Of a DNA stretch of 64,000 nucleotides, positions 2,511 to 43,954 are shown one piece after another. Below the pieces are notes generated by a model that saw nothing but the letters and a program-made list of their open reading frames with translations, was not told where the DNA came from and did not search any database. Source of the stretch: an uncultured archaeon (lineage in GTDB: Archaea > Asgardarchaeota > Lokiarchaeia > Sigyniarchaeales > SOKP01); contig CAZGJX010000007.1 in the NCBI GenBank assembly GCA_964525635.1, forward strand, positions 1,250 through 65,249. Direction: 5' to 3'. The number at the start of each line of letters is the position of its first letter. Positions within the stretch are counted from its first letter, which is position 1. The position numbers and the translations under genes are program-made.

Positions 2511-3107
2511 TTGGATATTTTTAAATTAATTACACTAAAAAGTAAAATTGAAATTCCCCCTTTCTTATTTGATCAGGATAAGACAGTTTCAGCTCGGATA
2601 ATATTAAGTGAAGATTATGAAGGAATCATTACAAGAGACTATGGATTTATAATTGCAGTCGTTGATGTTCTTTCTGTATCAAGAGGACAAATTATTCCTG
2701 GTAATGCCAACACTTTTCATGAAGTTGAATTTACAATTTTATCATTCAGACCAACAATTTCTGAAGTAGTTGAAGGAGATGTTGTGGAAATTGTTGATTT
2801 TGGGGCTTTTATCCGTTTAGGTCCTTTAGACGGACTTGTTCATGTAAGTCAAATTACGGATGATTATATTTCTTATGAACAGGTTGGAAATAGATTCATT
2901 GGAAAGGAGACTGGAAAAGTTTTAGAAGTTAATGATACTGTTAGAGCAAAAGTAATTGCTGTATCTTTAGGTGGTGGGAGAAGTGGTAAGCTCGGACTTT
3001 CTATGAGAAGTCCTTTCTTAGGCAAGGAAGAGTGGATAGAAGAAGACATTGAGAAAATGTACACTGAAGATCAAATAATAGAAGGAAATAAAGAAGTTGC
3101 TGAATAA
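2511..3107 (+). CDS. rpoE: DNA-directed RNA polymerase subunit E' (Rpo7) with S1 domain
   Basis: N-terminus DIFKLITLKSKIEIPPF is typical of Rpo7. S1-like motif GDVVEIVDFGAFIRLGPLDGLVHVSQI. TTG start. Conserved neighbourhood with spt4. Confidence 0.85.
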   Translation: MDIFKLITLKSKIEIPPFLFDQDKTVSARIILSEDYEGIITRDYGFIIAVVDVLSVSRGQIIPGNANTFHEVEFTILSFRPTISEVVEGDVVEIVDFGAFIRLGPLDGLVHVSQITDDYISYEQVGNRFIGKETGKVLEVNDTVRAKVIAVSLGGGRSGKLGLSMRSPFLGKEEWIEEDIEKMYTEDQIIEGNKEVAE

Positions 3108-3385
3108 TGAACTTCATAATAAAATAAACCCTTCTTGATAATTCATTAAAATTATTTTTTGTTTATTATTGAATCGTTCTGTATGAATTAATATTATCAT
3201 GAATTTCTTTTAGATTCAACTCTAATCATAACTAATATGAATTTTATTTTTTTTTACAATTTCATATATACATAATATATCAAATATAATGAAAGGACTT
3301 AAATATAATTATTAACATAAAATATATAATAAAATAATAAAAAAGGAAAAAAAAAAATAAAGAAACAAAAAGAAAAAAAGATAAG

Positions 3386-5040: not shown

Positions 5041-5064
5041 TTAACATAGGAGTGAAAAAAACTT

Positions 5065-5313
5065 ATGACTAATATGTCAAAATATTATAAAATGGAAGGA
5101 AATAAACTCGTTAGAACAAATAGAACGTGTAATAAATGTGGTCCGAGTGTTTTTATGGCCGACCACTATGATTAATTAAGAAAATTATTCTTAATTCATA
5201 AAAGATGGGCCTGTGGAGCATGCGGATACACTATTTTCAAAAGAAAAGGTAAAAAAGTTGATACCACATCAACTCGAAAAAGAACACCTCGAAAAAGAAA
5301 GAAATCAATGTAA
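5065..5313 (+). CDS. rps27ae: 30S ribosomal protein S27ae, interrupted: exon 1 5065-5172, 30-nt intervening segment 5173-5202 (begins with in-frame TAA), exon 2 5203-5313
   Basis: Manual translation gives MTNMSKYYKMEGNKLVRTNRTCNKCGPSVFMADHYD*LRKLFLIHK RWACGACGYTIFKRKGKK...KSM*. Removing 5173-5202 restores the conserved FMADH.DRWACG.CGYT zinc ribbon. GGAGTG Shine-Dalgarno-like site at 5049-5054. Neither half is in the ORF track because each is under 60 aa. Confidence 0.75.
5173..5202 (+). other. candidate bulge-helix-bulge (BHB-like) intron inside rps27ae
   Basis: Upper helix 5174-5182 AATTAAGAA pairs with 5188-5196 TTCTTAATT (9 bp, loop AATTA). Central 4-bp helix 5167-5170 TATG pairs with 5197-5200 CATA. 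It is flanked by 3-nt bulges ATT (5171-5173) and AAA (5201-5203) on opposite strands. The outer helix is weak (C5166-G5204, or CCA 5163-5165 with TGG 5206-5208). Confidence 0.55.
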
Positions 5314-5430
5314 CTTTTTATCAATTTAGTAATACTTCTTAATTTTTTAAATTCTTTCAATTTTTAGTAATTATTTATTTAATTATATCAATTTATTTAA
5401 TTAATAAAGTTAAAGAGGTTAGAAGGAACA

Positions 5431-6435
5431 ATCACCAAAATAGCATTAGGGATAGAAAGTACAGCTCATACTTGGGGTGTGGGGATTATTGATTTTACCG
5501 GCAAAATTCTTAGCCTTATTAATGATATTTTTATTCCTGAAAAGGGTGGACTTCATCCAGTAATGGTAAGAGAACAACATCTTAATAATTTTAAAAAAAC
5601 TATTGAAAAAGCTCTTATGGAAGCTAATTGCTCAATTAATGATGTTGATCTAGTAGTTTTTAGTCAAAGTCCTGGTCTTGGACCAATCTTAAAGATTGGT
5701 GCTATAGTTGCGAGATTATTAAGCCAAATGCTAGAAATTCCCATTGTAGGCGTAAATCACTGCATTGCTCATATAGAAATTGGTAGATTATTGTGTTCTA
5801 TAGATGATCCTCTAACTCTATATGTTTCTGGGGGGAATACCATAGTTAGTGCTTTTGAATCTGGAAAATATCAAATATTTGGCGAAACTCTTGATTTAGC
5901 AATTGGAAATATGATTGATAGTTTTGCCAGAGATGCTGATATATCTCATCCTGGTGGACCAAAAATTGAGAAATTAGCCTTGGAGTCCTCAAATTATATA
6001 CCTTTACCTTATGTTGTAAAAGGAATGGATTTATCATTTTCAGGATTGTATACTGCAGCTAAAAGATTATTAGAATCAAAAGGATTTGAAAACGAATATT
6101 CTTTAAATGATATTGCCTTCTCCTTGCAAGAAACGGCTTTTGCAATGTTGACTGAAGTAACTGAAAGAGCATTAGCTCATACTGAAAAAAATGAAGTACT
6201 ATTAACAGGGGGTGTGGCAGCGAATAAAAGATTACAGGAAATGATTAAAGATATATCTGAAGATCATAATGCACGATTTGAAGTAGTACCTTTAAGATAT
6301 GCTGGAGATAATGGAGCTATGATTGCATGGACTGGTGTTTTAAAATATAAACATAATGGTGGAGATAAAATCGAAGACACAATAATAAAACCTAAAGAAC
6401 GAATGGATAATATAGAAATTCCTTGGAGGTCTTAA
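5431..6435 (+). CDS. kae1: tRNA N6-adenosine threonylcarbamoyltransferase Kae1; start codon uncertain (non-ATG)
   Basis: The conserved N-terminus IALGIESTAHTWGVGII is encoded at 5440-5490, upstream of the listed GTG at 5479. The frame opens at 5401 with no ATG/GTG/TTG before the motif. ATC 5431 lies 10 nt after GAGGT (5416-5420). Other motifs: VNHCIAHIE, GGVAANKRL, GDNGAMIAW. Confidence 0.85.
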   Translation: MTKIALGIESTAHTWGVGIIDFTGKILSLINDIFIPEKGGLHPVMVREQHLNNFKKTIEKALMEANCSINDVDLVVFSQSPGLGPILKIGAIVARLLSQMLEIPIVGVNHCIAHIEIGRLLCSIDDPLTLYVSGGNTIVSAFESGKYQIFGETLDLAIGNMIDSFARDADISHPGGPKIEKLALESSNYIPLPYVVKGMDLSFSGLYTAAKRLLESKGFENEYSLNDIAFSLQETAFAMLTEVTERALAHTEKNEVLLTGGVAANKRLQEMIKDISEDHNARFEVVPLRYAGDNGAMIAWTGVLKYKHNGGDKIEDTIIKPKERMDNIEIPWRS

Positions 6436-6436
6436 T

Positions 6437-7111
6437 ATGAGTTTTGATATTATAAAAAAAGAGGTGATTAGAAAAGGTGCAGAAGCTTCTCTTTATTATG
6501 GATATTGGTTTAAAAAAGAAGCAATTTTTAAACATCGAATTCCAAAAAAATATAGATTAGATGTTTTAGATAGGCAGATTAGGTCCTCCAGAACGATAAA
6601 CGAAACTCGAGCACTTATTAAAATAAAAAATTATGGAATAAATGTTCCTTGTGTTTATGAATTAGACACTGAAAACTCCACAATCATCATGGATTATATA
6701 CATGGTGTAAAATTAAAAGATTTAGTTAAATCTTTGAACATTAAAAAGTTAGAAGTATATTTTAAGAAAGTTGGTGAATTTATTGCGATATTACATAGGA
6801 ATGGCCATATTCATGGAGACATAACAACAAGTAATATTATTATATCCCCAAATGAAGATGTATTCCTTATTGATTTTGGTTTACATGACTATTCAGATTC
6901 AATTGAAGATAAAAGTGTTGATATTCATCTTTTTAAAAGAGTGTTAATGTCTTCTCATGGAAAACATTATGAAATTTGCTATAAAGCTTTTATAAATGGT
7001 TATAAATCGGGTTACGATGAGAATTCCCTTGAAGAATATCAATCCATAATAGCAAATATAAAAGTTATTGAAACTCGTGGAAGATATGTCAAAAAAGAGG
7101 ACCGATTATGA
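6437..7111 (+). CDS. bud32: Kae1-associated kinase Bud32
   Basis: Small RIO-like kinase with GAEASLY, HGDITTSNIII and LIDFGL. ATG lies 1 nt after the kae1 stop, with GGAGGT just upstream. Confidence 0.85.
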   Translation: MSFDIIKKEVIRKGAEASLYYGYWFKKEAIFKHRIPKKYRLDVLDRQIRSSRTINETRALIKIKNYGINVPCVYELDTENSTIIMDYIHGVKLKDLVKSLNIKKLEVYFKKVGEFIAILHRNGHIHGDITTSNIIISPNEDVFLIDFGLHDYSDSIEDKSVDIHLFKRVLMSSHGKHYEICYKAFINGYKSGYDENSLEEYQSIIANIKVIETRGRYVKKEDRL

Positions 7112-8694: not shown

Positions 8695-8700
8695 GAGGAG
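8695..8700 (+). promoter_or_regulatory. Shine-Dalgarno-like GAGGAG upstream of rpoN
   Basis: GAGGAG lies 7 nt upstream of ATT 8708, the only plausible initiation position for the conserved IIPIRCFSCGK N-terminus. Confidence 0.45.
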
Positions 8701-8707
8701 ATTAACG

Positions 8708-8908
8708 ATTATAATCCCAATACGCTGTTTCTCATGTGGAAAACTTATTGCACATACATATAGACCTTATTTAGAATATTTAGAAAGAGGAGAAAGTTCT
8801 GAGAAAGCTTATGAGGAACTTGGTATAAAAAGATTCTGTTGTAAACGTATGATTGTTGCTCATGTTGATTTAATAGATGATTTACTTAAATTCCCTCGAT
8901 TACAATAA
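8708..8908 (+). CDS. rpoN: DNA-directed RNA polymerase subunit N (Rpo10); apparent ATT start
   Basis: Manual translation gives (ATT)IIPIRCFSCGKLIAHTYRPYLEYLERGESSEKAYEELGIKRFCCKRMIVAHVDLIDDLLKFPRLQ*. An in-frame TAA sits at 8690-8692, and there is no ATG/GTG/TTG before the zinc-binding CFSCG. Not in the ORF track. Confidence 0.85.
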   Translation: MIIPIRCFSCGKLIAHTYRPYLEYLERGESSEKAYEELGIKRFCCKRMIVAHVDLIDDLLKFPRLQ

Positions 8909-9072
8909 AATATAATTAAAAAAAAAACTTCTTTTTTAACTCTTATTGAAAATAAGTTAACTGTATCTTTATTTAATGAATCTAAATTAACTTTATAATA
9001 TATTGAATAAATAACTTAATTTTGAAATCAAATATAAAAGACTTTTAAAAAAAGATAGATTTCAATATTACT

Positions 9073-9760: not shown

Positions 9761-9996
9761 ATTGCTATTTTACCGATCTTTCAAAAGTATAATTAATTTT
9801 GAAAATGTTTAAAAATTTAAATATTTTATTGATTTGAGAGCTAGAATAATTTTTATTCATGAATTTATTGTTTGATTACAATTTCAAAATATTTATTCAA
9901 TTCTTAAGTAATGGTAATTTAATATAAATGAGTATTCGAAGATATATAAAATTAAAAAAATATAAAAATTATTAAATAGATTTTTAAATATATCCT

Positions 9997-10816: not shown

Positions 10817-12166
10817 ATGGTTTTATTAATTAATCCAAAAACAACAAAAGCTTCTGAATCTAAACGTGTATTTTTTAGGGAACCAAATACAGGTCTACTT
10901 TATCTAGCAGCAATTTTAGACCTTAATGATATTTTCGTAGAGATTATCGATCTTGAGCAATTCTCAGATTTAAATCAAAAAGATATAGAAAAAATTATCG
11001 AAAATATCTCAATTAATCACAAAATTTTTGGAATTACCTCCCTCACTAATACATTTCAAGGAGCAATGGCTATTGCAAAAATTATAAAAAAAATCAATCC
11101 CAATAATTATATAATATTTGGTGGACCACATGTTTCATTTTTATATGAAGATATATTGAAAAAAGATTATTATGAAGAAAAATTAATAGATTTTATTTGC
11201 ATAGGCGAAGCAGAAAGAAATTTTGTACAATTAGTTAAATTAATTTTAAAAAATAATTGTAAAAATATTAAGAACACCTCTAATTTTGTGCATAAAATCA
11301 ATTCTATAGAAGGAATTAGTTATATCAAATCGAAAGGAAAATTTAAATTCACAGGAACTCAAACAGAAATTATTAATTTAACCAATTTACCTCTCCCCGC
11401 ACGTTATAAATTAAATCCTATTAATTATGATTATACTGTGGCGAATGTAATTATTAATAGAGGATGTCCCAATAAATGTTCTTTTTGCTCAAGACAAAAT
11501 TTATTTAAAACAACGAGATTAAGAGAAATAAATTCAATAAAAACAGAAATTAGGGATATAAAATCTTTACAATCTTACAATTTCATCAATTTTTATGATA
11601 ACATAAACATTAATTCTGATTTTTTTGCAGAATTTTGTAATATGTTAAAAAAAGATGAATTTAAAATACCTTGGGGATGTGAAATTCGAATTGATAATCT
11701 TACAGAAAATCACGCGAAATTATTAAAAAATGCTAATTGTCAGATCGTTGCAACTGGTATAGAATCAGCAAATAAAGAAGTTTTAAAAAAGAATTTTAAA
11801 TATCAAAATCCTAACCATGTAAAAAGAGGTATTCATTATATTAAAAAATATAATATACCAGTTCAAGCTTATTTTGTTCTAGGTTTACCTGGTGAAACGG
11901 AGGAATCATTTCAAGAGACGATAGAATTTATCAAAAATTTACCCTTTACTAAATATGATAAAATAAACTATTTCATGGCAACACCCTATCCTGGCTCTAA
12001 ACTATGGAATAAAAGTGATTATTTTGGCATAAAAATTAAGGATTTCAATTTCTTAAATTATGATTGTGAACATATTATATTCGAAACAAATGAATTGAAA
12101 AAAAAAATGTTAGAAAGGATGCTTAAAGAGGCGAAAGAGATAGAATCATATTTCAATAGGAAATGA
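10817..12166 (+). CDS. B12-binding-domain radical SAM protein
   Basis: CX3CX2C cluster INRGCPNKCSFCS. N-terminal Rossmann-like B12-binding-type region (FGITSL...IIFGGPHVSF). Confidence 0.75.
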   Translation: MVLLINPKTTKASESKRVFFREPNTGLLYLAAILDLNDIFVEIIDLEQFSDLNQKDIEKIIENISINHKIFGITSLTNTFQGAMAIAKIIKKINPNNYIIFGGPHVSFLYEDILKKDYYEEKLIDFICIGEAERNFVQLVKLILKNNCKNIKNTSNFVHKINSIEGISYIKSKGKFKFTGTQTEIINLTNLPLPARYKLNPINYDYTVANVIINRGCPNKCSFCSRQNLFKTTRLREINSIKTEIRDIKSLQSYNFINFYDNININSDFFAEFCNMLKKDEFKIPWGCEIRIDNLTENHAKLLKNANCQIVATGIESANKEVLKKNFKYQNPNHVKRGIHYIKKYNIPVQAYFVLGLPGETEESFQETIEFIKNLPFTKYDKINYFMATPYPGSKLWNKSDYFGIKIKDFNFLNYDCEHIIFETNELKKKMLERMLKEAKEIESYFNRK

Positions 12167-12355: not shown

Positions 12356-13663
12356 ATGCCAACTAAAACAGATTTTTATATTGGAGAAGCTCTAATTGGT
12401 GAAGCTCCTGATCTTGCTCACCTTGATGTTATGATAGGATCTAAATTTGGACCTGTAGGATATGCATTTTCACAAAGCCTTAGTCAACCTTCAATGGGCC
12501 ACGGAAGTCTTTTAGCTGTTATTAGACCAAATCTCTGTCCAAAACCTCAAACACTTATTATCCCTAAAGTAACTATAAGCAATATGGAACATGCAAATAA
12601 GATCTTTGGTCCTGCACAAGCTGCCGTTGCTAAAGCTGTAGCAGACTGTGTAGAGGAAGGAATAATTCCTATAAATAAAGTAGATGAATGGGTTGTCATT
12701 GTAAATGTTTTTATTCATCCTGAAGCCGATAATTATAGAAGAATCTATCGATATAATTATGGTGCTACTAAATTAGCCATCAGACGAGCTTTAGAAAATT
12801 ATCCTCCAATTAAGAAAATATTTTATGATAAAGATAGAGCTAAACATCCTGTAGCTGGAATAAAGGCCCCTAAATTATGGAGACCGCCCTATTTACAAAT
12901 AGCTCTTGATCATCCATCTAAAGAACATCAAGCTAAAGTTTTAAAAGATTTACCAAAAAGTGATAGAATTATATTAGAAGTCGGTACGCCCTTCCTTAAA
13001 AAGTATGGGATGGAAGCTATCACACAAATTCGCGAACTCGCCCCAAATAAATATATTGTTGCCGATCTTAAAACATTAGATGTGGGTAAGTTAGAAGTAG
13101 ATGATGCATTTAAAGCAACTGCTGATGGAGTTGTTTGCAGTGGATTAGCATCATCAGCATCAATAGATAAATTCCTCTTGGAAGCTGAAAGAATGGGAAT
13201 AGATGGAATTATTGATATGATGGAAGTTGTTGATCCTGTTGAAAAATTAAAAAATTTAAAACAAATACCCCGTGTTGTGATTCTTCATAGAGGAATAGAT
13301 GCTGAACAATCTACTACAATGTCCGGTTCGGATGCTGAACAAAAAAAGAAATGGGGGTTTGTTCCTAGAATTAAAGAACTGTATCATGATAAAAAGTTTG
13401 CAAGTGGAAGAGATAGGGTATTGGTTGCTGTTGCCGGAGGAATCTCCCCTGAGACAGCTAATGATGCAGTAGCAGTGGGAGCAGATATTCTAATAGTTGG
13501 CCGTTTTATTACCTCAAGTAAGGATATAAAGAATTCTACAAGAAGAATGATTAACTTACTACCTGGATTTTCTGATATTGATTTAAAGAGAATTCACGTA
13601 GAAGATGATGATGATAGTGCTTTAACTAAACAAATAAAAGAAGATAATTCTCATCCTTCTTAA
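12356..13663 (+). CDS. fae-hps: bifunctional formaldehyde-activating enzyme / 3-hexulose-6-phosphate synthase (Fae-Hps)
   Basis: N-terminal Fae pattern YIGEALIGEAPDLAHLDVMIGSKFGPVGYAF. C-terminal OMPDC-like HPS region (LQIALDHP, VADLKTLDVG, VAVAGGI, IVGRFIT). Confidence 0.8.
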   Translation: MPTKTDFYIGEALIGEAPDLAHLDVMIGSKFGPVGYAFSQSLSQPSMGHGSLLAVIRPNLCPKPQTLIIPKVTISNMEHANKIFGPAQAAVAKAVADCVEEGIIPINKVDEWVVIVNVFIHPEADNYRRIYRYNYGATKLAIRRALENYPPIKKIFYDKDRAKHPVAGIKAPKLWRPPYLQIALDHPSKEHQAKVLKDLPKSDRIILEVGTPFLKKYGMEAITQIRELAPNKYIVADLKTLDVGKLEVDDAFKATADGVVCSGLASSASIDKFLLEAERMGIDGIIDMMEVVDPVEKLKNLKQIPRVVILHRGIDAEQSTTMSGSDAEQKKKWGFVPRIKELYHDKKFASGRDRVLVAVAGGISPETANDAVAVGADILIVGRFITSSKDIKNSTRRMINLLPGFSDIDLKRIHVEDDDDSALTKQIKEDNSHPS

Positions 13664-20779: not shown

Positions 20780-20973
20780 AAATCAATCTCTTTTTTTAAT
20801 AATAAATATCTATTCCTTAATTAATATTTTCTACTCCTAATTATTAGGTTGTACCATTCTATTTATTGCTATACAAAAAAACCTTATATATGAATTTAAC
20901 TAAATTAAATTTAACTTAAATTTTTAAAAAAAAAGTTAAAATTTAATAAAAAATCAAAGAAAAAGTTAAGAAA

Positions 20974-23595
20974 ATGAATAATTCTAAGATTAAAAATTAT
21001 AAAAATTACAAATTTAAATTTTTTTTCGTATTAATAATTACCATCACACTTTTTACAATTCCCAATTTTATTAGCAATTTTATGGACTATAATTATAATA
21101 TTATTGAAAAGGAAAAAGAACCTCACATATTCATTCCTGATTCTCCTAAATCTTCTTATGTTTATAATGTAGATACAACTGATTATGCACTTGATGTTTT
21201 TGTAGAAGGGAATTATGCATATGTAGCAGCTTATGCATCGGGTTTAGCAGTTATTGATATCTCTGATCCAACTAATCCCGGAACTCCTGTGTATGAAGAT
21301 ACAAATGGTGAAGCAATGGGAATTTATGTAAGTGGAGATTATGCTTATGTCGCAGATTATAATGAAGGATTAGCTATTATTGATATCTCAGATCCAACCA
21401 ATCCTGGAGCTCCTATATATATGGATACAACTGGACATGCAGATAATGTAGTTGTGGAAGGGAATTACGCTTATATAGCGGGGAGTTCTTCGGGTCTAGT
21501 AATTATAGATATTTCAGATCCTACCAATCCAGGAACACCTATATATCGTGGTACTACTTCAAACGCTTATGATGTTTATATAGAGGGGAATTATGCATAT
21601 GTAGCAGCTTATGCATCGGGTTTAGCAGTTATTGATATCTCTGATCCAACCAATCCAGGGACTCCAGTTTATGAAGATTTGTTGGGAGATACAAATACTG
21701 TTGTTATATATGGAGATTATGCTTATTTGAGTGACCACATTCATGGTGTAGCAACAATTCATATTTCTGATCCAACCAATCCAGGAACTCCAATATACTC
21801 GGAAGGAGGAACACCAAATGATATTTATATAGATGGAAATTATAGATATACTATTAGTGATTTTATATTAGGTATCAGTGATTTATCCAAGCCTACTAAT
21901 CCAAAAGGTATTGGAGGCGAGGAAACCCAAGGAGATGGCTATGGGGTCTATGTAGATGGTAATTATGCATATGTGGCAGATGGTGTTGAAGGTTTAGCAA
22001 TTATCGATATATCTGAACAAATAGATCCAACAAATCCTATATATCAAGATACAAACGGACTTGCTTTTGGAGTTCAACTTAGTGGTTCTTATGCATATGT
22101 AGCAGATGGAGCATCAGGTTTAGCAGTTATTGATATCTCAGATCCAACCGATCCTGAAGCACCTAATTATGAAAATACTGCTGGAAATGCTCAAAATGTT
22201 TATATATGTGGTGATTATGCATATGTGGCAGATGGTATTGAAGGTTTAGCAGTTATGGATATCTCAAATCCAGGGAATCCATGGTCTCCTGTATATGAAG
22301 ATACAAACGGAACTGCATACGATGTTTATGTGAGTGGAGATTATGCATATGTTGCCGATGGAGAAGAAGGTTTAGCAGTTATTAATATCTCAGATCCAAC
22401 GAATCCCGGAACTCCTGTGTATGAAGATACAAATGGTGAAGCATGGGGAATTTATGTAAGTGGAGATTATGCTTATGTTGCAGATGCAATATCAGGATTA
22501 GCAGTTATTGATATCTCAGATCCAACGAATCCCGGAACTCCTATATATGAGGATACAACTGGAGAAGCATATGGAGTTTATATAGATGGAGATTATGCTT
22601 TTATTGCAGATGGTACTGCTGGATTAGCAGTTATTAATATCTCAGATCCAACGAATCCTGGAACTCCTGTATATGAAAATACTAATGGTGTGACATATAA
22701 TATTCATGTGGAAGGTAATTATGCCTATATGGCTGATGGAACATCTGGTTTGGTCATTATAAACATCTTAGATCCAAACAATCCAGGAAATCCTATATAT
22801 GAGGATACCACAGGAGAAGCATATGGGATTTTTATGAATGGAGATTATGCTTATGTTGCAGATGGACCTTCTGGATTAGCAGTTATTCAGGTTCGAAGGC
22901 GATTTGACATGCGTGATCCAAGCATATATTGGGAACCAAGTGATCAGTATTACGAATTTGGTTATTCTAATAAAACTATTTCATGGGAAGTAAGTGATGA
23001 AAATCCAAGCAATTATACAATTGAACTTCAAGGAACAGGTATTATTGCAGGTCCCACCCCATGGGAAGATGATGTTGAAGTTGTATATAATATTCTTGAA
23101 GGTCTTTCTATAGGTGATCATATATTTACTATTAATTTTAGTGATAATTATGGTCATTTTGATATTGATAGTTTTCATGTTTATGTTGATGAATCTGTAA
23201 TTCCGGTTATAACTGAAATACCGGATGATAGAACTGTTTATGAAGGACATTATTCTGGGGATTATTTTCATTGGGAGGCAACTGATGAACATCCAGAAAC
23301 ATATACAATTGAGCTTCAAGGTACAGGTATTGTAGCAGGACCTATTTCTTGGTATAGTGGTGAACATATTAGTTATCAGATTCCAACTGACCTTTCAGTA
23401 GGTAAATATAATTTTACAATTTACTTTACAGATGGAGGTGGAAATATTGTTTCTGATTCGGCTATTTTTACTGTTAAAAAAAATACTGGAGTATTAAACG
23501 TTGGAATTTCGCTTGAGTATTATTATTTTGTTTCTTTATTAATAGGAATAATAACAATAATGATATTGAAGAAACGAAAAATAATATTTCACTAA
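20974..23595 (+). CDS. LVIVD-repeat beta-propeller surface protein with two Ig-like C-terminal repeats and a C-terminal TM anchor
   Basis: About 14 tandem units of G(D/N)YAYVAD...GLAVIDISDPTNPG.P.YEDT.G.A..VY. Two paralogous ~95-aa modules (W.(V/A)(S/T)DE.P..YTIELQGTGI(I/V)AGP). N-terminal TM/signal, and C-terminal LLIGIITIMILKKRK. Confidence 0.75.
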   Translation: MNNSKIKNYKNYKFKFFFVLIITITLFTIPNFISNFMDYNYNIIEKEKEPHIFIPDSPKSSYVYNVDTTDYALDVFVEGNYAYVAAYASGLAVIDISDPTNPGTPVYEDTNGEAMGIYVSGDYAYVADYNEGLAIIDISDPTNPGAPIYMDTTGHADNVVVEGNYAYIAGSSSGLVIIDISDPTNPGTPIYRGTTSNAYDVYIEGNYAYVAAYASGLAVIDISDPTNPGTPVYEDLLGDTNTVVIYGDYAYLSDHIHGVATIHISDPTNPGTPIYSEGGTPNDIYIDGNYRYTISDFILGISDLSKPTNPKGIGGEETQGDGYGVYVDGNYAYVADGVEGLAIIDISEQIDPTNPIYQDTNGLAFGVQLSGSYAYVADGASGLAVIDISDPTDPEAPNYENTAGNAQNVYICGDYAYVADGIEGLAVMDISNPGNPWSPVYEDTNGTAYDVYVSGDYAYVADGEEGLAVINISDPTNPGTPVYEDTNGEAWGIYVSGDYAYVADAISGLAVIDISDPTNPGTPIYEDTTGEAYGVYIDGDYAFIADGTAGLAVINISDPTNPGTPVYENTNGVTYNIHVEGNYAYMADGTSGLVIINILDPNNPGNPIYEDTTGEAYGIFMNGDYAYVADGPSGLAVIQVRRRFDMRDPSIYWEPSDQYYEFGYSNKTISWEVSDENPSNYTIELQGTGIIAGPTPWEDDVEVVYNILEGLSIGDHIFTINFSDNYGHFDIDSFHVYVDESVIPVITEIPDDRTVYEGHYSGDYFHWEATDEHPETYTIELQGTGIVAGPISWYSGEHISYQIPTDLSVGKYNFTIYFTDGGGNIVSDSAIFTVKKNTGVLNVGISLEYYYFVSLLIGIITIMILKKRKIIFH
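21208..21272 (+). repeat. 65-nt perfect intragenic direct repeat, copy 1 (within the LVIVD gene)
   Basis: GGGAATTATGCATATGTAGCAGCTTATGCATCGGGTTTAGCAGTTATTGATATCTCTGATCCAAC is identical to 21586-21650, offset 378 nt (126 codons). Confidence 0.9.
21586..21650 (+). repeat. 65-nt perfect intragenic direct repeat, copy 2
   Basis: Identical to 21208-21272. Further near-identical ~90-nt units occur, e.g. 21264-21355 vs 22388-22479. Confidence 0.9.
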
Positions 23596-25977: not shown

Positions 25978-26607
25978 TTGTCAAATGATCTAATAAATTT
26001 AATAGTAGAATTAGATGAGGATGAAGCTATAGAACTAGTTCATCATAGAATTAAAGAAGGTGAAGATCCCCTTAATATATTAGGAGATGTAAAAGAAGCA
26101 ATGAGTGTTGTAGGTGAAAAATATCAGAAAAATGAGTATTTCTTATCAGAATTAATTATGACTGGTGAGATTTCAAAAGATATAACAGATATAATACAAC
26201 CTCTACTTAAACCTGATACTAATTCAAAAAATCTGGGAAAAATTGTATTAGGAACCGTATTTGGTGATATTCATGATATTGGAAAGGATATTGTAAAATT
26301 TATGCTTGATACAAATGGGTTTAAAGTATTTGACCTTGGTGTAGACGTATCAAAAGAAAAGTTTATTGAGAAAATTAAAGAAGTAAATCCCGATATTATT
26401 GCTCTTAGTGGGTTCCTTACTCTCGCTTATGATGCTATGAAAGAAATTATTACTGAAATTGACAAAGCAGGACTTAGAGAAAATAGGAAGATCATGATAG
26501 GGGGAGGACAAATAGATGATAGTATCCAGATTTATGTAGGTGCAGACGCTTTCGGAAAAGATGCTGTTGAAGCAGTAAAAATTGCAAAAAATTGGGTGAG
26601 TGGTTAA
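25978..26607 (+). CDS. corrinoid (B12-binding) protein of a methyltransferase system
   Basis: B12-binding cap helices followed by the DxHxxG motif GTVFGDIHDIGKDIVKFML and GFLTLA..IMIGGG. TTG start after AGAGGA. Confidence 0.8.
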   Translation: MSNDLINLIVELDEDEAIELVHHRIKEGEDPLNILGDVKEAMSVVGEKYQKNEYFLSELIMTGEISKDITDIIQPLLKPDTNSKNLGKIVLGTVFGDIHDIGKDIVKFMLDTNGFKVFDLGVDVSKEKFIEKIKEVNPDIIALSGFLTLAYDAMKEIITEIDKAGLRENRKIMIGGGQIDDSIQIYVGADAFGKDAVEAVKIAKNWVSG

Positions 26608-26609
26608 AA

Positions 26610-28040
26610 ATGTGGAATAAGATAAAATTTTGGAAAAAATATATAAAGTCTGATAAAGAATCAGAACCAAAAGTAAAAAAAAAGGTTACAGAACCAGTTG
26701 AACAAGATATAGAACTTTCTAGATTAGATGAAAAACAAGAAAAAATGTTTGAAAGATGGCTTTCAGCAGAAAATATTAACTTTATTAGTCCAGAAGCTGA
26801 ACGCCTATATAAGGAAAGAATAATAAGAATTAAAAACGCAATACAATTGAAAAAAATACCAGATAGGGTACCAGTTGTTTTAAGTATAGGATTTTTTCCA
26901 GCATATTATTCTGGATTAACTCCAAAAGAAGTTATGTATGATTATGATAAATTATATGCTTCTTGGAAAAGGTTTGTTTTGGATTTTCAACCTGATGCTC
27001 ACATAGGGTGTTTTGTTCCAGGACCAGGTAAAATATTTGACATTCTAGATTATAGATTATATGCATGGCCAGGGCATGGTACCTCTCCTGAGCACTCATA
27101 TCAGTGTATTGAAAAAGAATATATGAAAAAGGATGAATATGATGCCTTTATTGAAGATCCTTCTGGATTCTTTAGAACTGTATATCTTCCTCGTATTTTT
27201 GGAGCATTAGAACCATTGAAAAACCTTTCTCCTCTGACAAATATACTTGAGATAGTATTCACTGGTGGAAGTATCCTTCCTTATGGGCTTCCTGATGTTC
27301 AAGAAGCATATAAAAAGCTTTTACAAGCAGGATCAGAAGCTTTAAAATGGGGCGGAGTTCTTGGTGCATTTGATAAGGAAATGGCTGAATTGGGATATCC
27401 AAACTTTTTTGGAGGTGCCACAAAGGCTCCTTTTGACACTATTGGTGATACTCTTAGAGGAACTAGAGGAATTATGATGGATATTCATAGACAACCAGAG
27501 AAACTTCTGGAAGCTCTTGATAAAATCACCCCTTTAATGGTCAAATTAGGGGTTGGAGGTGCAAAAATGAGTGGTAATCCTCTTATATTTATACCTTTAC
27601 ATAAAGGTGCAGATGCGTTTCTTTCTGACAAACAATACAGAAAATTCTATTGGCCTTCATTTAAAAACACACTTTTGGGATTAATTGAAGAAGGATGTGT
27701 TCCATTTCCCTATGCAGAAGGAAGTTATAATACACGCTTAAATGTAATTAAGGACTTACCTAAAGGTAAAGTACTTTGGGGCCTTGATTTAACAGATATG
27801 ACAGCTGCAAAGGAAGTTCTTGGTGATTATGCGTGTATAGCAGGAAATGTACCTATTACCCTATTAAATGTGGGAGCTAGTGAACAAGTCAAATTTTATA
27901 CTCAGGCCTTGATTGATAGTGTTAGTCATGGAGGGGGATTTATAATGATGAATGGTACTGTTATTGAAGAAGCTAAACCAGAAAATGTCAAAACTATGAT
28001 CAATACCACTAAAGAATATGGTGTATACAAACAGGATTAA
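26610..28040 (+). CDS. uroporphyrinogen-decarboxylase (URO-D/MtaA/MtvB-like) family methyltransferase
   Basis: URO-D-fold-like sequence (IPDRVPVV, HKGADAFLS, FPYAEGSY, ACIAGNVP). ATG 26610 lies 3 nt after the corrinoid gene stop; the ORF-track TTG 26592 would overlap. Lys-rich ~45-aa N-terminal extension. Confidence 0.65.
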   Translation: MWNKIKFWKKYIKSDKESEPKVKKKVTEPVEQDIELSRLDEKQEKMFERWLSAENINFISPEAERLYKERIIRIKNAIQLKKIPDRVPVVLSIGFFPAYYSGLTPKEVMYDYDKLYASWKRFVLDFQPDAHIGCFVPGPGKIFDILDYRLYAWPGHGTSPEHSYQCIEKEYMKKDEYDAFIEDPSGFFRTVYLPRIFGALEPLKNLSPLTNILEIVFTGGSILPYGLPDVQEAYKKLLQAGSEALKWGGVLGAFDKEMAELGYPNFFGGATKAPFDTIGDTLRGTRGIMMDIHRQPEKLLEALDKITPLMVKLGVGGAKMSGNPLIFIPLHKGADAFLSDKQYRKFYWPSFKNTLLGLIEEGCVPFPYAEGSYNTRLNVIKDLPKGKVLWGLDLTDMTAAKEVLGDYACIAGNVPITLLNVGASEQVKFYTQALIDSVSHGGGFIMMNGTVIEEAKPENVKTMINTTKEYGVYKQD

Positions 28041-28088
28041 AAAACTTAAATTATTTCATGATAATCAGTTGCATTAACACTGAATATC

Positions 28089-28097
28089 TTTTTTTTT
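28089..28097 (+). terminator. T-tract putative terminator after the methyltransferase pair
   Basis: T9 run about 50 nt after the stop at 28040. Confidence 0.35.
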
Positions 28098-28185
28098 AAA
28101 TCTATATTCTTAGCGTAATATGTCATTATATTTATTTTTAGAATTCTATTAAAAAAGAAGGGTAAGAACTATCTTATAAATAGAG

Positions 28186-28215
28186 ACTATTGGTACAAAA
28201 AAAAGTACCAATAGT
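28186..28215. repeat. perfect 11-bp inverted repeat (hairpin) with A8 loop
   Basis: ACTATTGGTAC-AAAAAAAA-GTACCAATAGT in the ORF-poor region. Confidence 0.85.
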
Positions 28216-29376
28216 AATTGCATTTTTTATAAATTTCATAAATTCATTATCTGGGAGAAACAGATTTATATCTTATGAAATTTACTAAATTGATCGTATT
28301 AATTTAAATATTTAAATTTATTTTATTAGATACTTATAATTAATATAAATAAAAGTTCAATTAAAACGGTCATTTCCTGAATTTCAATCAATTAATTAAT
28401 ATTATAATCTATATGAAAGATTTTCAACATTATATCCAATTTTAACTGAAATAGATATATAATTTTTTATTTTTTGAGATTTTTTTGAATTTTAACATTG
28501 AGCTTCTGTAGTGTTTATTTCTGCTTTTTTATCAATTTTATTACCTAAAACAGTTATAGTAATCATATTCAATATATTATGATTTCCTTCTCTAAAAGAG
28601 TTTATCTAAGATAGCTTCACTGTAAAAGTATTTGAGTTCATAATATTATAAATAAAAAGACCTAAAATGGAGTTTCGATACATATGTTTGATATCATACG
28701 CAAGAAGAGGCGATCCCCCAATATAATAAATATATTATCATTTACGTCACTTTTTCTTTCTAATATCAAATCCCTTTTAATTCCCGACTTTTCTATTTTA
28801 TAAGATAATCTTCCAATATTGAATAAGAATGAAGTTTTCTAAATCCATTGTTCTCCTAATATTTTTGGTTCATTAGCTAATTAAAATTCAATAATTTATT
28901 TATTAATTCAAATCTAATAAATCACATTATTTATTAGAATATAGAATTCCTCTTTATTAAATTAAAAAACTAGATTTTCATAAATATTGTCAAATTAGAT
29001 GTGTAGACATTTCTTTGATAAAATTTCGTTTTAAAAGAATATAATCCTTAACAGCAATAGTTCTGATAGCAGTTTGTTTGGATTAAATAATAGCATAATT
29101 TGGATTAAACTAATTATAGAAATATTATAAAAAGCTATAAAGCAATAAGAAAGATTTCTTTTTTAAATTTTAGCTTCAATAAATGGAATTTAATCTCTGA
29201 TAATTTGCAGTTAACTAAAAATAAAAATAATTTCATCCATGTTTATCTTTTCCTCTACAAATACAAGATTTATTTGTAATAGATAGGTTTAAATACACTA
29301 TTTCATATAACAATTACTTGAAAATATAAATTAAGTATAATTAAATAGAATAAATATAATTTGGAGGGATAAATTA

Positions 29377-29556
29377 ATGAATCCAAATTTAAATGAAGGA
29401 CCTAAAAGGAATAAAAAAAAAAGAGATTGGGATGATGATGATGATTTCGATAACGATATTGAATATGACGAAGAAGACTATGGGGATGACAGGGATGATG
29501 ATTTAGATGAGGACAAATGGGATGATGAAGATAATTATAATTACTATGATTTTTAG
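29377..29556 (+). CDS. possible 59-aa hyper-acidic micro-protein
   Basis: ATG lies 8 nt after GGAGGG. Sequence MNPNLNEGPKRNKKKRDWDDDDDFDNDIEYDEEDYGDDRDDDLDEDKWDDEDNYNYYDF*. It is the only coherent ORF in a ~2-kb gap. Not in the ORF track (under 60 aa). Confidence 0.35.
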   Translation: MNPNLNEGPKRNKKKRDWDDDDDFDNDIEYDEEDYGDDRDDDLDEDKWDDEDNYNYYDF

Positions 29557-30042
29557 AAATGGACTTTCTTACGAAAAATACTTAACCAATTCTAAATAAA
29601 GAATAAGATATCATTAAGCTATAAATAATATTTTTTTTGATCATTTGATTAATTTCTAAGATGAAAATTCTAAATTTCAGTATTTATCTATTTATTTTTA
29701 TGATATTATTTTTCGGGTAATATCGATTTTAAAAAGAATTTTATAATAATGTAATTTCTCCAATGGTTAATATCTCCTATTAGATTAATAAATTATAATA
29801 AAAGTATTAAAAAAATTAATTTTTCTTAATTATTTTCTTGGAATTAAGACAAGACTTATCTAACTAATTATAGTAATATAAAATAAGATATATATATGAA
29901 TCTCTAATAGATTTAATTTACAAAATTACGGAACAGAACAGAATTAACATTTTGAAATAGAAGAGTTTATAAATATTATTATACTTAAAATTTCACAAAA
30001 AGATTATAATTTAATTAATATTAAAAAGTTAAATTAAAAAAA

Positions 30043-31992: not shown

Positions 31993-32112
31993 AAAAATAT
32001 ATTCTTAAAAAAAAAATGTTTTTTTTATTTACTCTAAAAATAAGTGTAAGATAAAGATATAAAGGTTTAAGAATATTATAAACATAGCAAAAGCAAAAAT
32101 AAAGAAAAAAAT

Positions 32113-43765: not shown

Positions 43766-43954
43766 ATAAGTGTTTAAACTAATTATATAATAGAATTACA
43801 TTTAAAAATTTTAGCTATTAATAAACATAATTTAAGAGTATCATTTTAAAAATATTTTAGATCTTTTAAATGGAACATATTAAGAAAATTATTAATATGA
43901 TAAGTTGGTTCTTTTATATTGGGATTAATAATTTTCTTATGATTAAGGGTTAAA

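What the first reader, a model, noticed from the sequence alone, without database searches (positions are those of the whole stretch)
5160..5212. Candidate bulge-helix-bulge intron splitting the zinc ribbon of ribosomal protein S27ae
rps27ae is open from ATG 5065 to GAT 5170-5172 (…CNKCGPSVFMADHYD), then hits TAA at 5173. Exactly 30 nt later, in the same frame, the conserved continuation RWACGACGYT… resumes and runs to TAA 5311-5313. Archaeal S27ae proteins as I recall them read FMADH.DRW.CGKCGYT without a gap. Deleting 5173-5202 therefore restores a normal 72-aa protein whose two CxxC pairs sit on either side of the insert. The insert and its flanks fold as follows. A 9-bp upper helix pairs 5174-5182 with 5188-5196 around the loop AATTA. 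A 4-bp central helix pairs TATG 5167-5170 with CATA 5197-5200. Two 3-nt bulges, ATT 5171-5173 and AAA 5201-5203, lie on opposite strands. This is the geometry of the BHB motif cut by the archaeal splicing endonuclease. Symmetric cuts after the second bulge nucleotide excise exactly 5173-5202 and join GAT|AGA (D-R). The outer helix is weak, so this would be a relaxed hBH form. To my knowledge BHB introns in protein-coding genes are documented almost only for cbf5 in some Crenarchaeota, so one in a ribosomal protein gene would be unusual.
Basis: partly seen in the sequence, partly recalled or inferred. Interest (0 to 1): 0.85.

Follow-up and report, generated by a model that had tools for sequence, protein, structure and literature searches.

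The report
Mini-intron inside archaeal ribosomal protein gene
A Lokiarchaeon's gene for ribosomal protein S27ae is broken by a 30-base insert that close relatives lack, and the insert folds into the shape cut by the archaeal tRNA-splicing enzyme at exactly the two points needed to restore the protein, so it is very probably a rare intron in an archaeal protein-coding gene.

Summary
rps27ae (ATG 5065) stops at TAA 5173. The same frame resumes 30 nt later and runs to TAA 5311. Removing 5173-5202 gives a 72-aa protein that matches Pfam S27a end to end.

Nine orthologous loci from other Promethearchaeota (Lokiarchaeota) species are uninterrupted, and the insert lies exactly between their Asp and Arg codons. 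The identical insert is present in other metagenome assemblies.

The RNA folds as a 4-bp helix (5167-5170/5197-5200), a 3-nt bulge (5171-5173), a perfect 9-bp helix with a 5-nt loop, and AAA (5201-5203) on the opposite strand. Cutting after the second nucleotide of each bulge gives exactly the junction seen in the relatives. With the boundaries fixed by that comparison, only 0.2% of shuffled inserts fit this register.

The exon-side helix next to the 3' site is poor, so this is a relaxed HBh'-type motif. Published work assigns cleavage of such motifs to the heterotetrameric EndA reported for Asgard archaea.

Splicing itself is not shown: no transcript data, and no EndA or RtcB in the window. 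The best reading is a recently gained BHB intron. In the literature I could search it would be only the second gene after crenarchaeal cbf5 with such an intron inside its coding sequence, and the first in Asgard archaea. Confidence about 0.8.

The parts
5049..5054 (+). Shine-Dalgarno-like GGAGTG, 10 nt upstream of the rps27ae ATG
   Evidence: Read directly from the sequence.
5065..5172 (+). rps27ae exon 1: 36 codons, MTNMSKYYKMEGNKLVRTNRTCNKCGPSVFMADHYD, containing the first CxxC pair
   Evidence: ORF list and translation. On its own it scores 43.2 bits against PF01599. The exact 36-aa ORF is called in NCBI, JGI and Logan assemblies.
5173..5202 (+). 30-nt insert, the proposed BHB intron: TAATTAAGAAAATTATTCTTAATTCATAAA. 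It begins with the in-frame stop TAA.
   Evidence: Absent from all orthologues compared. The alignment gap falls exactly here, and tblastn shows a 10-residue gap only in the window-type loci. The hairpin occurs nowhere else in the window.
5203..5313 (+). rps27ae exon 2: 36 codons (RWACGACGYTIFKRKGKK..., second CxxC pair) plus the stop TAA 5311-5313
   Evidence: Translation. The first 18 codons are identical in amino-acid sequence to the nearest relative despite 12 synonymous differences.
5167..5170 (+). Central helix H, 5' strand (UAUG, from the 5' exon). It pairs with 5197-5200.
   Evidence: Pair probabilities 0.85-0.95 in every context tested.
5171..5173 (+). 5' bulge AUU. The predicted cut lies between 5172 and 5173.
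   Evidence: Geometry. The cut site equals the orthologue-defined 5' boundary of the insert.
5174..5196 (+). Intron-side helix h': 9 perfect Watson-Crick pairs (5174-5182 with 5188-5196) closed by the loop AAUUA (5183-5187)
   Evidence: Sequence. Pair probabilities are 0.82-1.0, except the first pair at 0.19 because of the alternative register.
5197..5200 (+). Central helix H, 3' strand (CAUA, from the intron)
5201..5203 (+). 3' bulge or loop strand AAA. The predicted cut lies between 5202 and 5203.
   Evidence: Predicted to sit in a 3x3 internal loop opposite CAC 5164-5166. The cut site equals the orthologue-defined 3' boundary of the insert.
5141..5163 (+). Exon-1 strand of the outer (exon-exon) helices: 5141-5145, 5147-5153, 5157-5160 and 5162-5163
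   Evidence: RNAfold minimum-energy fold. The GGCC/GGCC pairs have P about 1.0. Similar exon-exon pairing is predicted when the intron is grafted into the orthologues without the intron, L001 and L003.
5204..5227 (+). Exon-2 strand of the outer helices: 5204, 5206, 5208-5211, 5215-5221 and 5223-5227

Best explanation
The 30 nt at 5173-5202 are a bulge-helix-bulge (BHB) intron of the relaxed HBh' type, gained recently in the rps27ae (eS31) gene of one Lokiarchaeial lineage.

Proposed mechanism:
1. The gene is transcribed with the insert.
2. The last six nucleotides of exon 1 and the intron fold into a 4-bp helix H (UAUG/CAUA), a 3-nt bulge (AUU) and a 9-bp hairpin h'. AAA lies on the opposite strand. 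The whole motif is held at the tip of a longer exon-exon helix.
3. The archaeal splicing endonuclease EndA cuts after the second nucleotide of each 3-nt element (5172|5173 and 5202|5203).
4. An RtcB-type ligase joins GAU to AGA.
5. The spliced mRNA encodes a normal 72-aa zinc-ribbon protein, and the 30-nt intron is released, probably as a circle.

Unspliced mRNA can only give a 36-aa fragment with half of the zinc ribbon.

Shown here: the insert, its absence from relatives, the fold, and the exact match between the predicted cut sites and the insert boundaries.
Inferred: cleavage, ligation, and that the host enzyme accepts this relaxed motif.
For: (1) Excision restores a full-length S27a match: 63.3 bits over profile positions 2-44 of 44, against 52.5 bits unspliced.
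(2) Nine orthologous loci from other Promethearchaeota species are uninterrupted, and the gap in the DNA alignment is exactly 5173-5202.
(3) The BHB cut rule applied to the 4-bp register gives the same two positions. With boundaries fixed, 0.2% of shuffled inserts reach H plus h' of at least 4 bp in register and 1.6e-5 reach h' of at least 9 bp. No natural 30-mer from the window reaches h' of 9 bp.
(4) The fold has z = -4.75, and its pair probabilities are the same in contexts from 91 to 794 nt.
(5) The identical insert occurs in contigs from SRR9707989, SRR9706179 and JGI 3300031624, each 100% identical to the window over 3.0-3.8 kb.
(6) The zinc-knuckle codons of exon 2 carry 12 synonymous differences and no amino-acid difference from the nearest relative. 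The SD, the ATG and the terminal stop are intact, and there is no second copy in the window.
(7) TAA is an ordinary stop in this genome: it ends rps24e at the orthologous length of 117 aa.
(8) Literature: relaxed HBh'/hBH/BHL motifs are cut only by (alpha-beta)2 or epsilon2 EndAs that carry a specific loop, and Asgard archaea including a Lokiarchaeote encode the (alpha-beta)2 type with the L1 loop (PMC5829648). The same enzyme class was linked to cbf5 pre-mRNA splicing (PMC2738675). Some Asgard genomes have introns in 92-95% of their tRNA genes, often at non-canonical positions (PMC11291895).
Against: - There are no transcript data. The exact spliced 72-aa protein is absent from a collection of about 15 billion predicted proteins that includes assemblies of public sequencing runs.
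- The thermodynamically preferred register is slipped by one nucleotide (H of 5 bp). Cutting that form by the same rule would remove 29 nt and shift the frame. The canonical register is 1.0 kcal/mol higher.
- The 3' site is not in a clean bulge, and the helix h adjoining it is essentially missing.
- All intron-bearing copies are identical, so no covariation test is possible.
- No other lineage shows an intron at this site.
- No EndA or RtcB gene lies in the window, and the organism's own enzyme type is not known.
- BHB-like shapes with long h' occur at near-chance frequency in this AT-rich DNA.
- The window's exons support the fold no better than the exons of relatives do.
Confidence: 0.8

Rival explanations
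1. The insert is an inactivating insertion that is not repaired at the RNA level. A small palindromic indel or miniature element hit rps27ae recently. The gene is a young pseudogene, and either another copy supplies the function or the organism does without eS31.
For: The insert is lineage-specific and evolutionarily young. All copies are identical, and the nearest relative lacks it. No spliced product is on record. Hairpins with BHB-like geometry occur by chance in this AT-rich genome. The rest of the genome could not be searched for a second copy.
Against: A hairpin insert would have to land by accident so that 4 nt of its tail pair with the exon, both 3-nt elements fall in register, and the cut rule restores the exact orthologous junction. 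That happens for at most 0.2% of composition-matched inserts. The expression signals are intact, as are both exons and all the neighbouring operon genes. The same allele is found in at least two read sets. The hairpin is not a repeated element in the 64-kb window. From general knowledge, S27ae is a universal single-copy archaeal ribosomal protein.
Confidence: 0.1
2. The defect is repaired during translation. Either the ribosome reads through UAA 5173 and makes an 82-aa protein with a 10-residue insert (xLRKLFLIHK) in the zinc ribbon, or it hops over the gap as in phage T4 gene 60.
For: The insert is 30 nt, a multiple of three, and contains only one in-frame stop. A stop codon directly after a potential take-off codon (GAU), followed at once by a hairpin, resembles the gene 60 arrangement (sequence; the gene 60 features are from general knowledge).
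Against: TAA serves as a normal terminator in neighbouring genes. About 44% of random AT-rich 9-codon stretches lack a stop (my estimate from base composition), so the single stop means little. The only matching landing codon, GAU 5204-5206, would resume in the wrong frame (GGG CCU GUG...) and lose the conserved RWACGACGYT. The read-through version scores lower against PF01599 (52.5 against 63.3 bits) and would put 10 residues between the two CxxC pairs.
Confidence: 0.04
3. The insert is an assembly or sequencing artefact.
For: Short palindromes can be created by library or assembly errors. All the supporting contigs come from what look like related samples (neighbouring SRR accessions, and a JGI contig nearly identical to one of the Logan contigs).
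Against: The same 30 nt are recovered by three different assembly pipelines (NCBI MAG, JGI, Logan) from at least two read sets, within contigs that are otherwise 100% identical to the window over 3-3.8 kb.
Confidence: 0.02

Closest known systems
BHB intron in cbf5 pre-mRNA of Crenarchaeota (Desulfurococcales and Sulfolobales; Watanabe 2002, Yoshinari 2006, Yokobori 2009, PMC2738675)
   Same: Both are short introns inside a protein-coding ORF. Both have mostly relaxed ('unconventional') BHB motifs. Both have predicted cuts between the 2nd and 3rd bulge nucleotides that restore the conserved protein. Both show lineage-specific presence or absence, and both occur in hosts with a heterotetrameric, broad-specificity EndA.
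   Different: The gene differs (rps27ae/eS31, not cbf5), and so does the phylum (Promethearchaeota/Asgard, not Thermoproteota). Here the intron looks very young and is seen in a single lineage, whereas the cbf5 intron is shared by two orders. Splicing was shown experimentally for cbf5 but not here.
Non-canonical (HBh'/hBH/BHL) tRNA introns of TACK, DPANN and Asgard archaea
   Same: The structural motif, the size range and the presumed enzymes (EndA with a specific loop, then RtcB) are the same. Asgard genomes can carry very many such introns (PMC11291895).
   Different: The host RNA is an mRNA, with no tRNA body to help the enzyme dock. A long exon-exon helix presents the motif instead.
BHB intron in the 5' UTR of Haloferax volcanii HVO_1309 mRNA (PMC7714728)
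   Same: An mRNA is a substrate of EndA.
   Different: That intron lies in the untranslated leader and does not interrupt the coding sequence.
Unconventional HAC1/XBP1 mRNA splicing in eukaryotes (Ire1 endonuclease, with RtcB ligase in metazoa)
   Same: Both are small non-spliceosomal introns in a coding sequence, defined by RNA structure. Both are cut by a protein endonuclease that leaves ends for a tRNA-type ligase. In both, the unspliced mRNA gives a different or truncated product.
   Different: The endonuclease and the motif differ (twin 7-nt loops cut by Ire1). That system is regulatory and stress-induced, and no regulation is shown here.
Translational bypassing in phage T4 gene 60
   Same: In both, a stop codon follows the last sense codon directly and a hairpin starts the gap.
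   Different: There is no take-off/landing codon pair that keeps the conserved frame. The comparison was tested and rejected.

Membership tests
Archaeal BHB (EndA-dependent) intron | Two 3-nt bulges on opposite strands, separated by a central helix of exactly 4 bp | tested here: met
   H is UAUG 5167-5170 with CAUA 5197-5200. AUU 5171-5173 lies on the 5' strand and AAA 5201-5203 on the 3' strand. Caveat: this register is 1.0 kcal/mol above the slipped 5-bp register.
Archaeal BHB (EndA-dependent) intron | Strict hBHBh' form: helices of at least 2 bp adjoin both bulges (h on the exon side, h' on the intron side) | tested here: not met
   h' is 9 perfect pairs. Next to the 3' site, h is at most a lone and unfavourable C5166-G5204 pair, and the site is predicted to sit in a 3x3 loop. 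The motif is therefore the relaxed HBh' type as defined in PMC5829648. Stable exon-exon helices begin 4-7 nt further out.
Archaeal BHB (EndA-dependent) intron | Cutting after the 2nd nucleotide of each bulge and joining the ends yields the functional mature sequence | tested here: met
   The predicted junction 5172|5203 gives ...HYD-RWACG..., identical to the uninterrupted orthologues and a full-length PF01599 match.
Archaeal BHB (EndA-dependent) intron | The host encodes an EndA able to cut relaxed motifs ((alpha-beta)2 with the L1 loop, or epsilon2) and an RtcB ligase | not testable with these tools
   Neither was found among the roughly 55 ORFs of the window scanned against Pfam, and the rest of the genome is not available. 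The literature reports (alpha-beta)2 EndA with the L1 loop in Asgard archaea, including a Lokiarchaeote (PMC5829648).
Archaeal BHB (EndA-dependent) intron | The intron is absent from the mature RNA in vivo, or is cleaved in vitro | not testable with these tools
   No transcript data are available. The exact spliced protein is not in the 15-billion-protein collection.
Archaeal BHB (EndA-dependent) intron | The structure is conserved with compensatory changes among intron-bearing relatives | tested here: inconclusive
   All intron-bearing copies are 100% identical. No other lineage carries an insert at this site.
Crenarchaeal cbf5 intron (as a homologous intron family) | Located in cbf5, at the codon of the catalytic aspartate | tested here: not met
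   The host gene is rps27ae. This is the same kind of intron but not a homologue of the cbf5 intron.
Ribosomal protein eS31/S27ae (PF01599) | Full-length match to the family profile, with a four-cysteine zinc ribbon | tested here: met
   Met only after excision: 63.3 bits over profile positions 2-44 of 44, with CNKC...CGAC. The conserved context is rpoE'-spt4-DUF359-rps24e-rps27ae-kae1-bud32.
Programmed translational bypass (T4 gene 60 type) | Matching take-off and landing codons that flank the gap and resume the conserved frame | tested here: not met
   The take-off codon would be GAU 5170-5172. The only downstream GAU (5204-5206) resumes one nucleotide out of the conserved frame.

The most novel reading that the evidence does not exclude
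This is a recently acquired, possibly mobile BHB mini-intron that inserted at the tip of a pre-existing mRNA hairpin in a universal ribosomal-protein gene of an Asgard archaeon. Synthesis of eS31, and with it ribosome production, would now depend on the tRNA-splicing enzymes EndA and RtcB. That would be a prokaryotic counterpart of HAC1/XBP1-type splicing. It would also show that protein-coding genes in the closest archaeal relatives of eukaryotes are open to colonisation by introns.
Probability: 0.15. Interest if true: 0.85.

Novelty: new member of a known kind. Interest (0 to 1): 0.7.

Why it matters
Introns removed by the tRNA-splicing endonuclease are common in archaeal tRNAs and rRNAs. 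Inside a coding sequence, however, the literature I could search reports them for only one gene, cbf5 of some Crenarchaeota, plus one intron in a 5' UTR.

A second case would show that mRNA splicing by this pathway is not a peculiarity of cbf5. It can arise anew wherever a broad-specificity endonuclease exists. This case is also in a different phylum (Asgard, the closest archaeal relatives of eukaryotes), in a universal ribosomal-protein gene, and has a sister lineage at 91-96% protein identity without the intron.

The pair with and without the intron gives a natural before-and-after view of intron gain. The small size makes it easy to test with a 91-nt substrate.

There is a practical consequence too. 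Gene callers report only a 36-aa fragment here, so such introns cause 'missing' or 'truncated' core genes in annotations and completeness estimates of metagenome-assembled genomes.

Tried and rejected
- Mobility or source of the intron. The 23-nt hairpin is unique in the window, even with 3 mismatches allowed. After filtering, only the rps27ae contig itself (L135, the same contig as L006) was a true copy and the rest were chance AT-rich palindromes. This scan therefore tells nothing about mobility.
- Other split genes. A permissive scan for BHB motifs that rescue an ORF gave many hits. Only the rps27ae one combines a short intron, a long perfect h' and restoration of a known protein. The strict scan found 7 motifs with h' of at least 9 bp against 1.65 expected, and none of the other six rescued a broken reading frame in the permissive scan. 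Pfam annotation of about 55 ORFs showed no other broken gene and no EndA or RtcB.
- Co-adaptation of the exons to the intron. I grafted the intron into nine orthologues. The closest relatives (L001, L003) are predicted to form as much exon-exon pairing as the window or more, so there is no sign of co-adaptation. The outer helix appears to pre-date the intron.
- Intron at the same site in other lineages. None was found among 7 GTDB species loci retrieved through the neighbouring rps24e gene, the 6 database homologues, or 39 representatives from a full HMMER search of 1.84 billion proteins with exon 1. The two short hits there are N-terminal fragments that stop before the HYD site.
- Spliced product in public data. 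The exact 72-aa sequence is not in the collection.
- A possible second intron at the kae1 start was rejected. That gene uses a non-canonical AUC/AUU start behind a conserved GAGGT.
- A 452-aa TolC-like protein in the same 90% cluster as the 36-aa ORF is a clustering artefact.
- There are no tRNA genes and no Rfam hits in the window or the related loci.

Full report
OBSERVATION. The window is AT-rich (about 26% GC). Around the finding it carries the conserved archaeal cluster rpoE'-(small ORF)-spt4-DUF359-rps24e-rps27ae-kae1-bud32. rps27ae starts at ATG 5065, 10 nt after GGAGTG. It reads 36 codons to GAT 5170-5172 and then meets TAA 5173-5175. The same frame continues as *LRKLFLIHK, followed by RWACGACGYTIFKRKGKK... 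up to TAA 5311-5313. Removing 5173-5202 gives a 72-aa protein that matches Pfam S27a (PF01599) over profile positions 2-44 of 44 at 63.3 bits. Exon 1 alone scores 43.2 bits, and the unspliced read-through version scores 52.5 bits. Every coordinate in the finding is correct.

COMPARATIVE EVIDENCE. A database search with the spliced protein returned six proteins, the four that carry a source name being annotated as Lokiarchaeota S27ae. The closest is P0001, at 96% identity in that search and 91% over residues 1-70 by tblastn. It reads ...FMADHYDRWACGACGYT... without a break. I fetched its DNA from three assemblies and the DNA of P0002 from three assemblies (two were used in the DNA alignment). 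I also fetched six further Promethearchaeota species through the neighbouring rps24e gene. All nine distinct orthologous loci are uninterrupted. In the DNA alignment the gap is exactly the 30 nt 5173-5202, between GAT and the Arg codon. The boundaries of the insert are thus defined without reference to any RNA structure. The truncated 36-aa ORF is also on record in contigs from SRR9707989, SRR9706179 and JGI 3300031624. These contigs are 100% identical to the window over 3.0-3.8 kb. The JGI contig and the SRR9706179 contig are almost certainly the same sample. The insert is therefore real in one population seen in at least two read sets, it is absent from the nearest sampled relatives, and it is evolutionarily young.

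STRUCTURE. UAUG 5167-5170 pairs with CAUA 5197-5200, forming helix H. AUU 5171-5173 is unpaired. AAUUAAGAA 5174-5182 pairs perfectly with UUCUUAAUU 5188-5196, forming helix h' around the loop AAUUA. AAA 5201-5203 follows H on the 3' strand. This is the orientation of a natural BHB: the 5' exon end pairs with the intron's 3' end, the 5' bulge lies between H and h', and the 3' bulge lies between H and the exon-side helix. RNAfold on 5140-5230 recovers this architecture (-30 kcal/mol, z = -4.75, no shuffle as stable). The pair probabilities are identical whether 91, 171, 249, 411 or 794 nt are folded. Cutting after the second nucleotide of each 3-nt element is the rule used for cbf5 and for tRNA introns (PMC2738675). 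Applied here it gives 5172|5173 and 5202|5203, which are exactly the boundaries defined by the orthologues.

Two imperfections matter. First, A5171 competes with A5174 for U5196. The slipped form (H of 5 bp, bulge UUA) is favoured by 1.0 kcal/mol (-30.0 against -29.0; P = 0.79 against 0.19). Only the 4-bp register gives an in-frame product. I assume the enzyme selects it, because its two active sites are a fixed distance apart (general knowledge of EndA-BHB structures). Second, the 3' site is predicted to lie in a 3x3 internal loop (CAC 5164-5166 opposite AAA). A lone C5166-G5204 pair would make a clean bulge but costs about 3 kcal/mol. Beyond the loop the exons pair strongly: GGCC/GGCC with P about 1.0, then 7 bp and 5 bp more.

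IS IT MORE THAN CHANCE? On its own the motif is not remarkable in this genome. Strict Watson-Crick H(4) + 3-nt bulges + h' of at least 9 bp occurs 7 times in the window on both strands, against a mean of 1.65 (maximum 5) in 20 dinucleotide shuffles. For h' of at least 8 bp the counts are 14 against 6.95. The relevant test is conditional. With the boundaries fixed by the alignment, 0.2% of 10^6 shuffled inserts form H plus h' of at least 4 bp in the required register, and 1.6e-5 reach 9 bp. When all 63,969 natural 30-mers of the window are placed at the site, 60 reach 4 bp and none reaches 9 bp.

CONTEXT AND MACHINERY. No tRNA gene, Rfam family, EndA or RtcB lies in the window, so the organism's own enzymes could not be examined. 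Published work states three things. Relaxed motifs are cleaved only by (alpha-beta)2 or epsilon2 EndAs that carry a specific loop. Asgard archaea, including a Lokiarchaeote, encode the (alpha-beta)2 type with the L1 loop shared with TACK archaea (PMC5829648). This enzyme class was proposed to have allowed the cbf5 pre-mRNA intron to arise (PMC2738675). Some Asgard genomes have introns in 92-95% of their tRNA genes, often at non-canonical positions (PMC11291895).

SELECTION. Over the first 18 codons of exon 2, the window and its nearest relative differ at 12 synonymous positions and at no amino acid. Expression signals and the terminal stop are intact. This fits a functional gene, but it cannot prove selection after the insertion, because the insertion may be much younger than the split from that relative.

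RIVALS.
(a) Young pseudogene or accidental hairpin insertion. This cannot be excluded without the whole genome or RNA data. It would require a coincidence of at most 0.2% in a universal ribosomal-protein gene whose operon is otherwise intact. I give it 0.1.
(b) Translational recoding. TAA is a normal stop here, since rps24e ends on it at the orthologous length. For a gene 60-type hop, the only matching landing codon (GAU 5204-5206) resumes in the wrong frame. Read-through would place 10 residues between the two CxxC pairs and lowers the family score. I give it 0.04.
(c) Artefact. Three pipelines and at least two read sets agree. I give it 0.02.

COMPARISON WITH WHAT IS KNOWN. It works like the crenarchaeal cbf5 intron and like non-canonical tRNA introns. 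It is not a homologue of the cbf5 intron, because the gene and the phylum differ. In the searchable literature the only BHB intron reported inside a coding sequence is cbf5, and the only other one in an mRNA is in the 5' UTR of Haloferax HVO_1309 (PMC7714728). Seven completed full-text searches (an eighth failed on a formatting error) found no report for Asgard archaea or for a ribosomal-protein gene. A study of Asgard ribosomal-protein clusters mentions no S27ae intron. I therefore class it as a new member of a known kind. The library does not cover subscription journals, so I cannot rule out a prior report.

ORIGIN (inference). When the intron is grafted into the closest orthologues without the intron, the exons on either side of the HYD|R site are predicted to pair with each other as much as in the window or more. 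The intron therefore seems to sit at the tip of an older mRNA hairpin that now serves as the outer helix. The intron contributes the 3' strand of H (CAUA), which is complementary to the conserved Tyr-Asp codons UAUG. That would fit insertion guided by base pairing, but no donor copy was found.

VERDICT. I put about 0.8 on a genuine EndA/RtcB-spliced intron. Interest is high for archaeal RNA biology and moderate in general (0.7). The mechanism is a known one, but the setting is new: the coding sequence of a universal ribosomal-protein gene, in an Asgard lineage, gained recently, with a sister lineage that lacks it. It can be tested directly.

Noticed in passing
window 5415-5445 (start of kae1); L001, L003 and L007 at the same place: The conserved N-terminus of Kae1 (ITKIALGIESTAH...) has no ATG, GTG or TTG upstream of it. 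A conserved GAGGT is followed about 11 nt later by ATC in the window and by ATT in three relatives, so the gene appears to start on a non-canonical AUY codon. The ORF tool therefore lists a version 16 codons shorter, starting at GTG 5479.
   Followed up: partly
window 8708-8908 (+): An unlisted rpoN (RNA polymerase subunit N/Rpb10) gene: PF01194 at 91 bits, covering the whole profile. Between the upstream stop (8690) and the conserved IIPIRCFSCGK there is no ATG, GTG or TTG. GAGGAG 8695-8700 is followed by ATT ATA ATC, so this is a second gene with an apparent AUU or AUA start. Gene callers limited to ATG/GTG/TTG would miss it.
   Followed up: partly
window 28041-30042: About 2 kb with no convincing ORF on either strand, even counting from stop to stop. 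The one exception is a 59-aa, highly acidic ORF at 29377-29556. There are no Rfam hits at E <= 1 and only a small 10-nt tandem repeat at 29322-29361. This is unusually long for non-coding DNA in an otherwise gene-dense window, and it remains unexplained.
   Followed up: partly
L001 and L003, around their HYD|R codons (L001 about 3063-3153): With the intron grafted in, the two halves of the zinc-ribbon coding region are predicted to pair with each other in the close relatives without the intron as well (expected exon-exon pairs 26.5 against 21.1 in the window). The intron seems to occupy the tip of a pre-existing mRNA hairpin.
   Followed up: partly
window 43882-43943 (+); 9812-9896 (-); 10922-11009 (-); 31957-31999 (-); 6973-7063 (+); 20937-21028 (+); 8910-8940 (-): Other BHB-like geometries with long inner helices (up to 14 bp at 43882-43943, which lies between ORFs). 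By the ORF coordinates some are intergenic and some overlap coding sequence, and none rescues a broken reading frame. Their number is only modestly above the shuffle expectation.
   Followed up: partly
window 20974-23595 (+), repeats 21171-22887: An 873-aa protein made of 11 LVIVD repeats (PF08309, 413 bits). At the DNA level this appears as a 126-nt tandem repeat array with higher-order periods of 252 and 378 nt.
   Followed up: no
protein P0008 (not in the window): A 452-aa bacterial TolC-like protein is filed in the same 90%-identity cluster as the 36-aa S27ae exon-1 ORF. This is a clustering artefact in the protein collection and could mislead automated look-ups of very short ORFs.
   Followed up: yes
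window 12356-13663 (+): A fused formaldehyde-activating enzyme (Fae) and OMP-decarboxylase/HUMPS-family protein (probably Fae-Hps). Nearby are B12-binding and URO-D-like methyltransferase genes (25978-28040). This is ordinary Lokiarchaeial C1 metabolism, recorded only for context.
   Followed up: no
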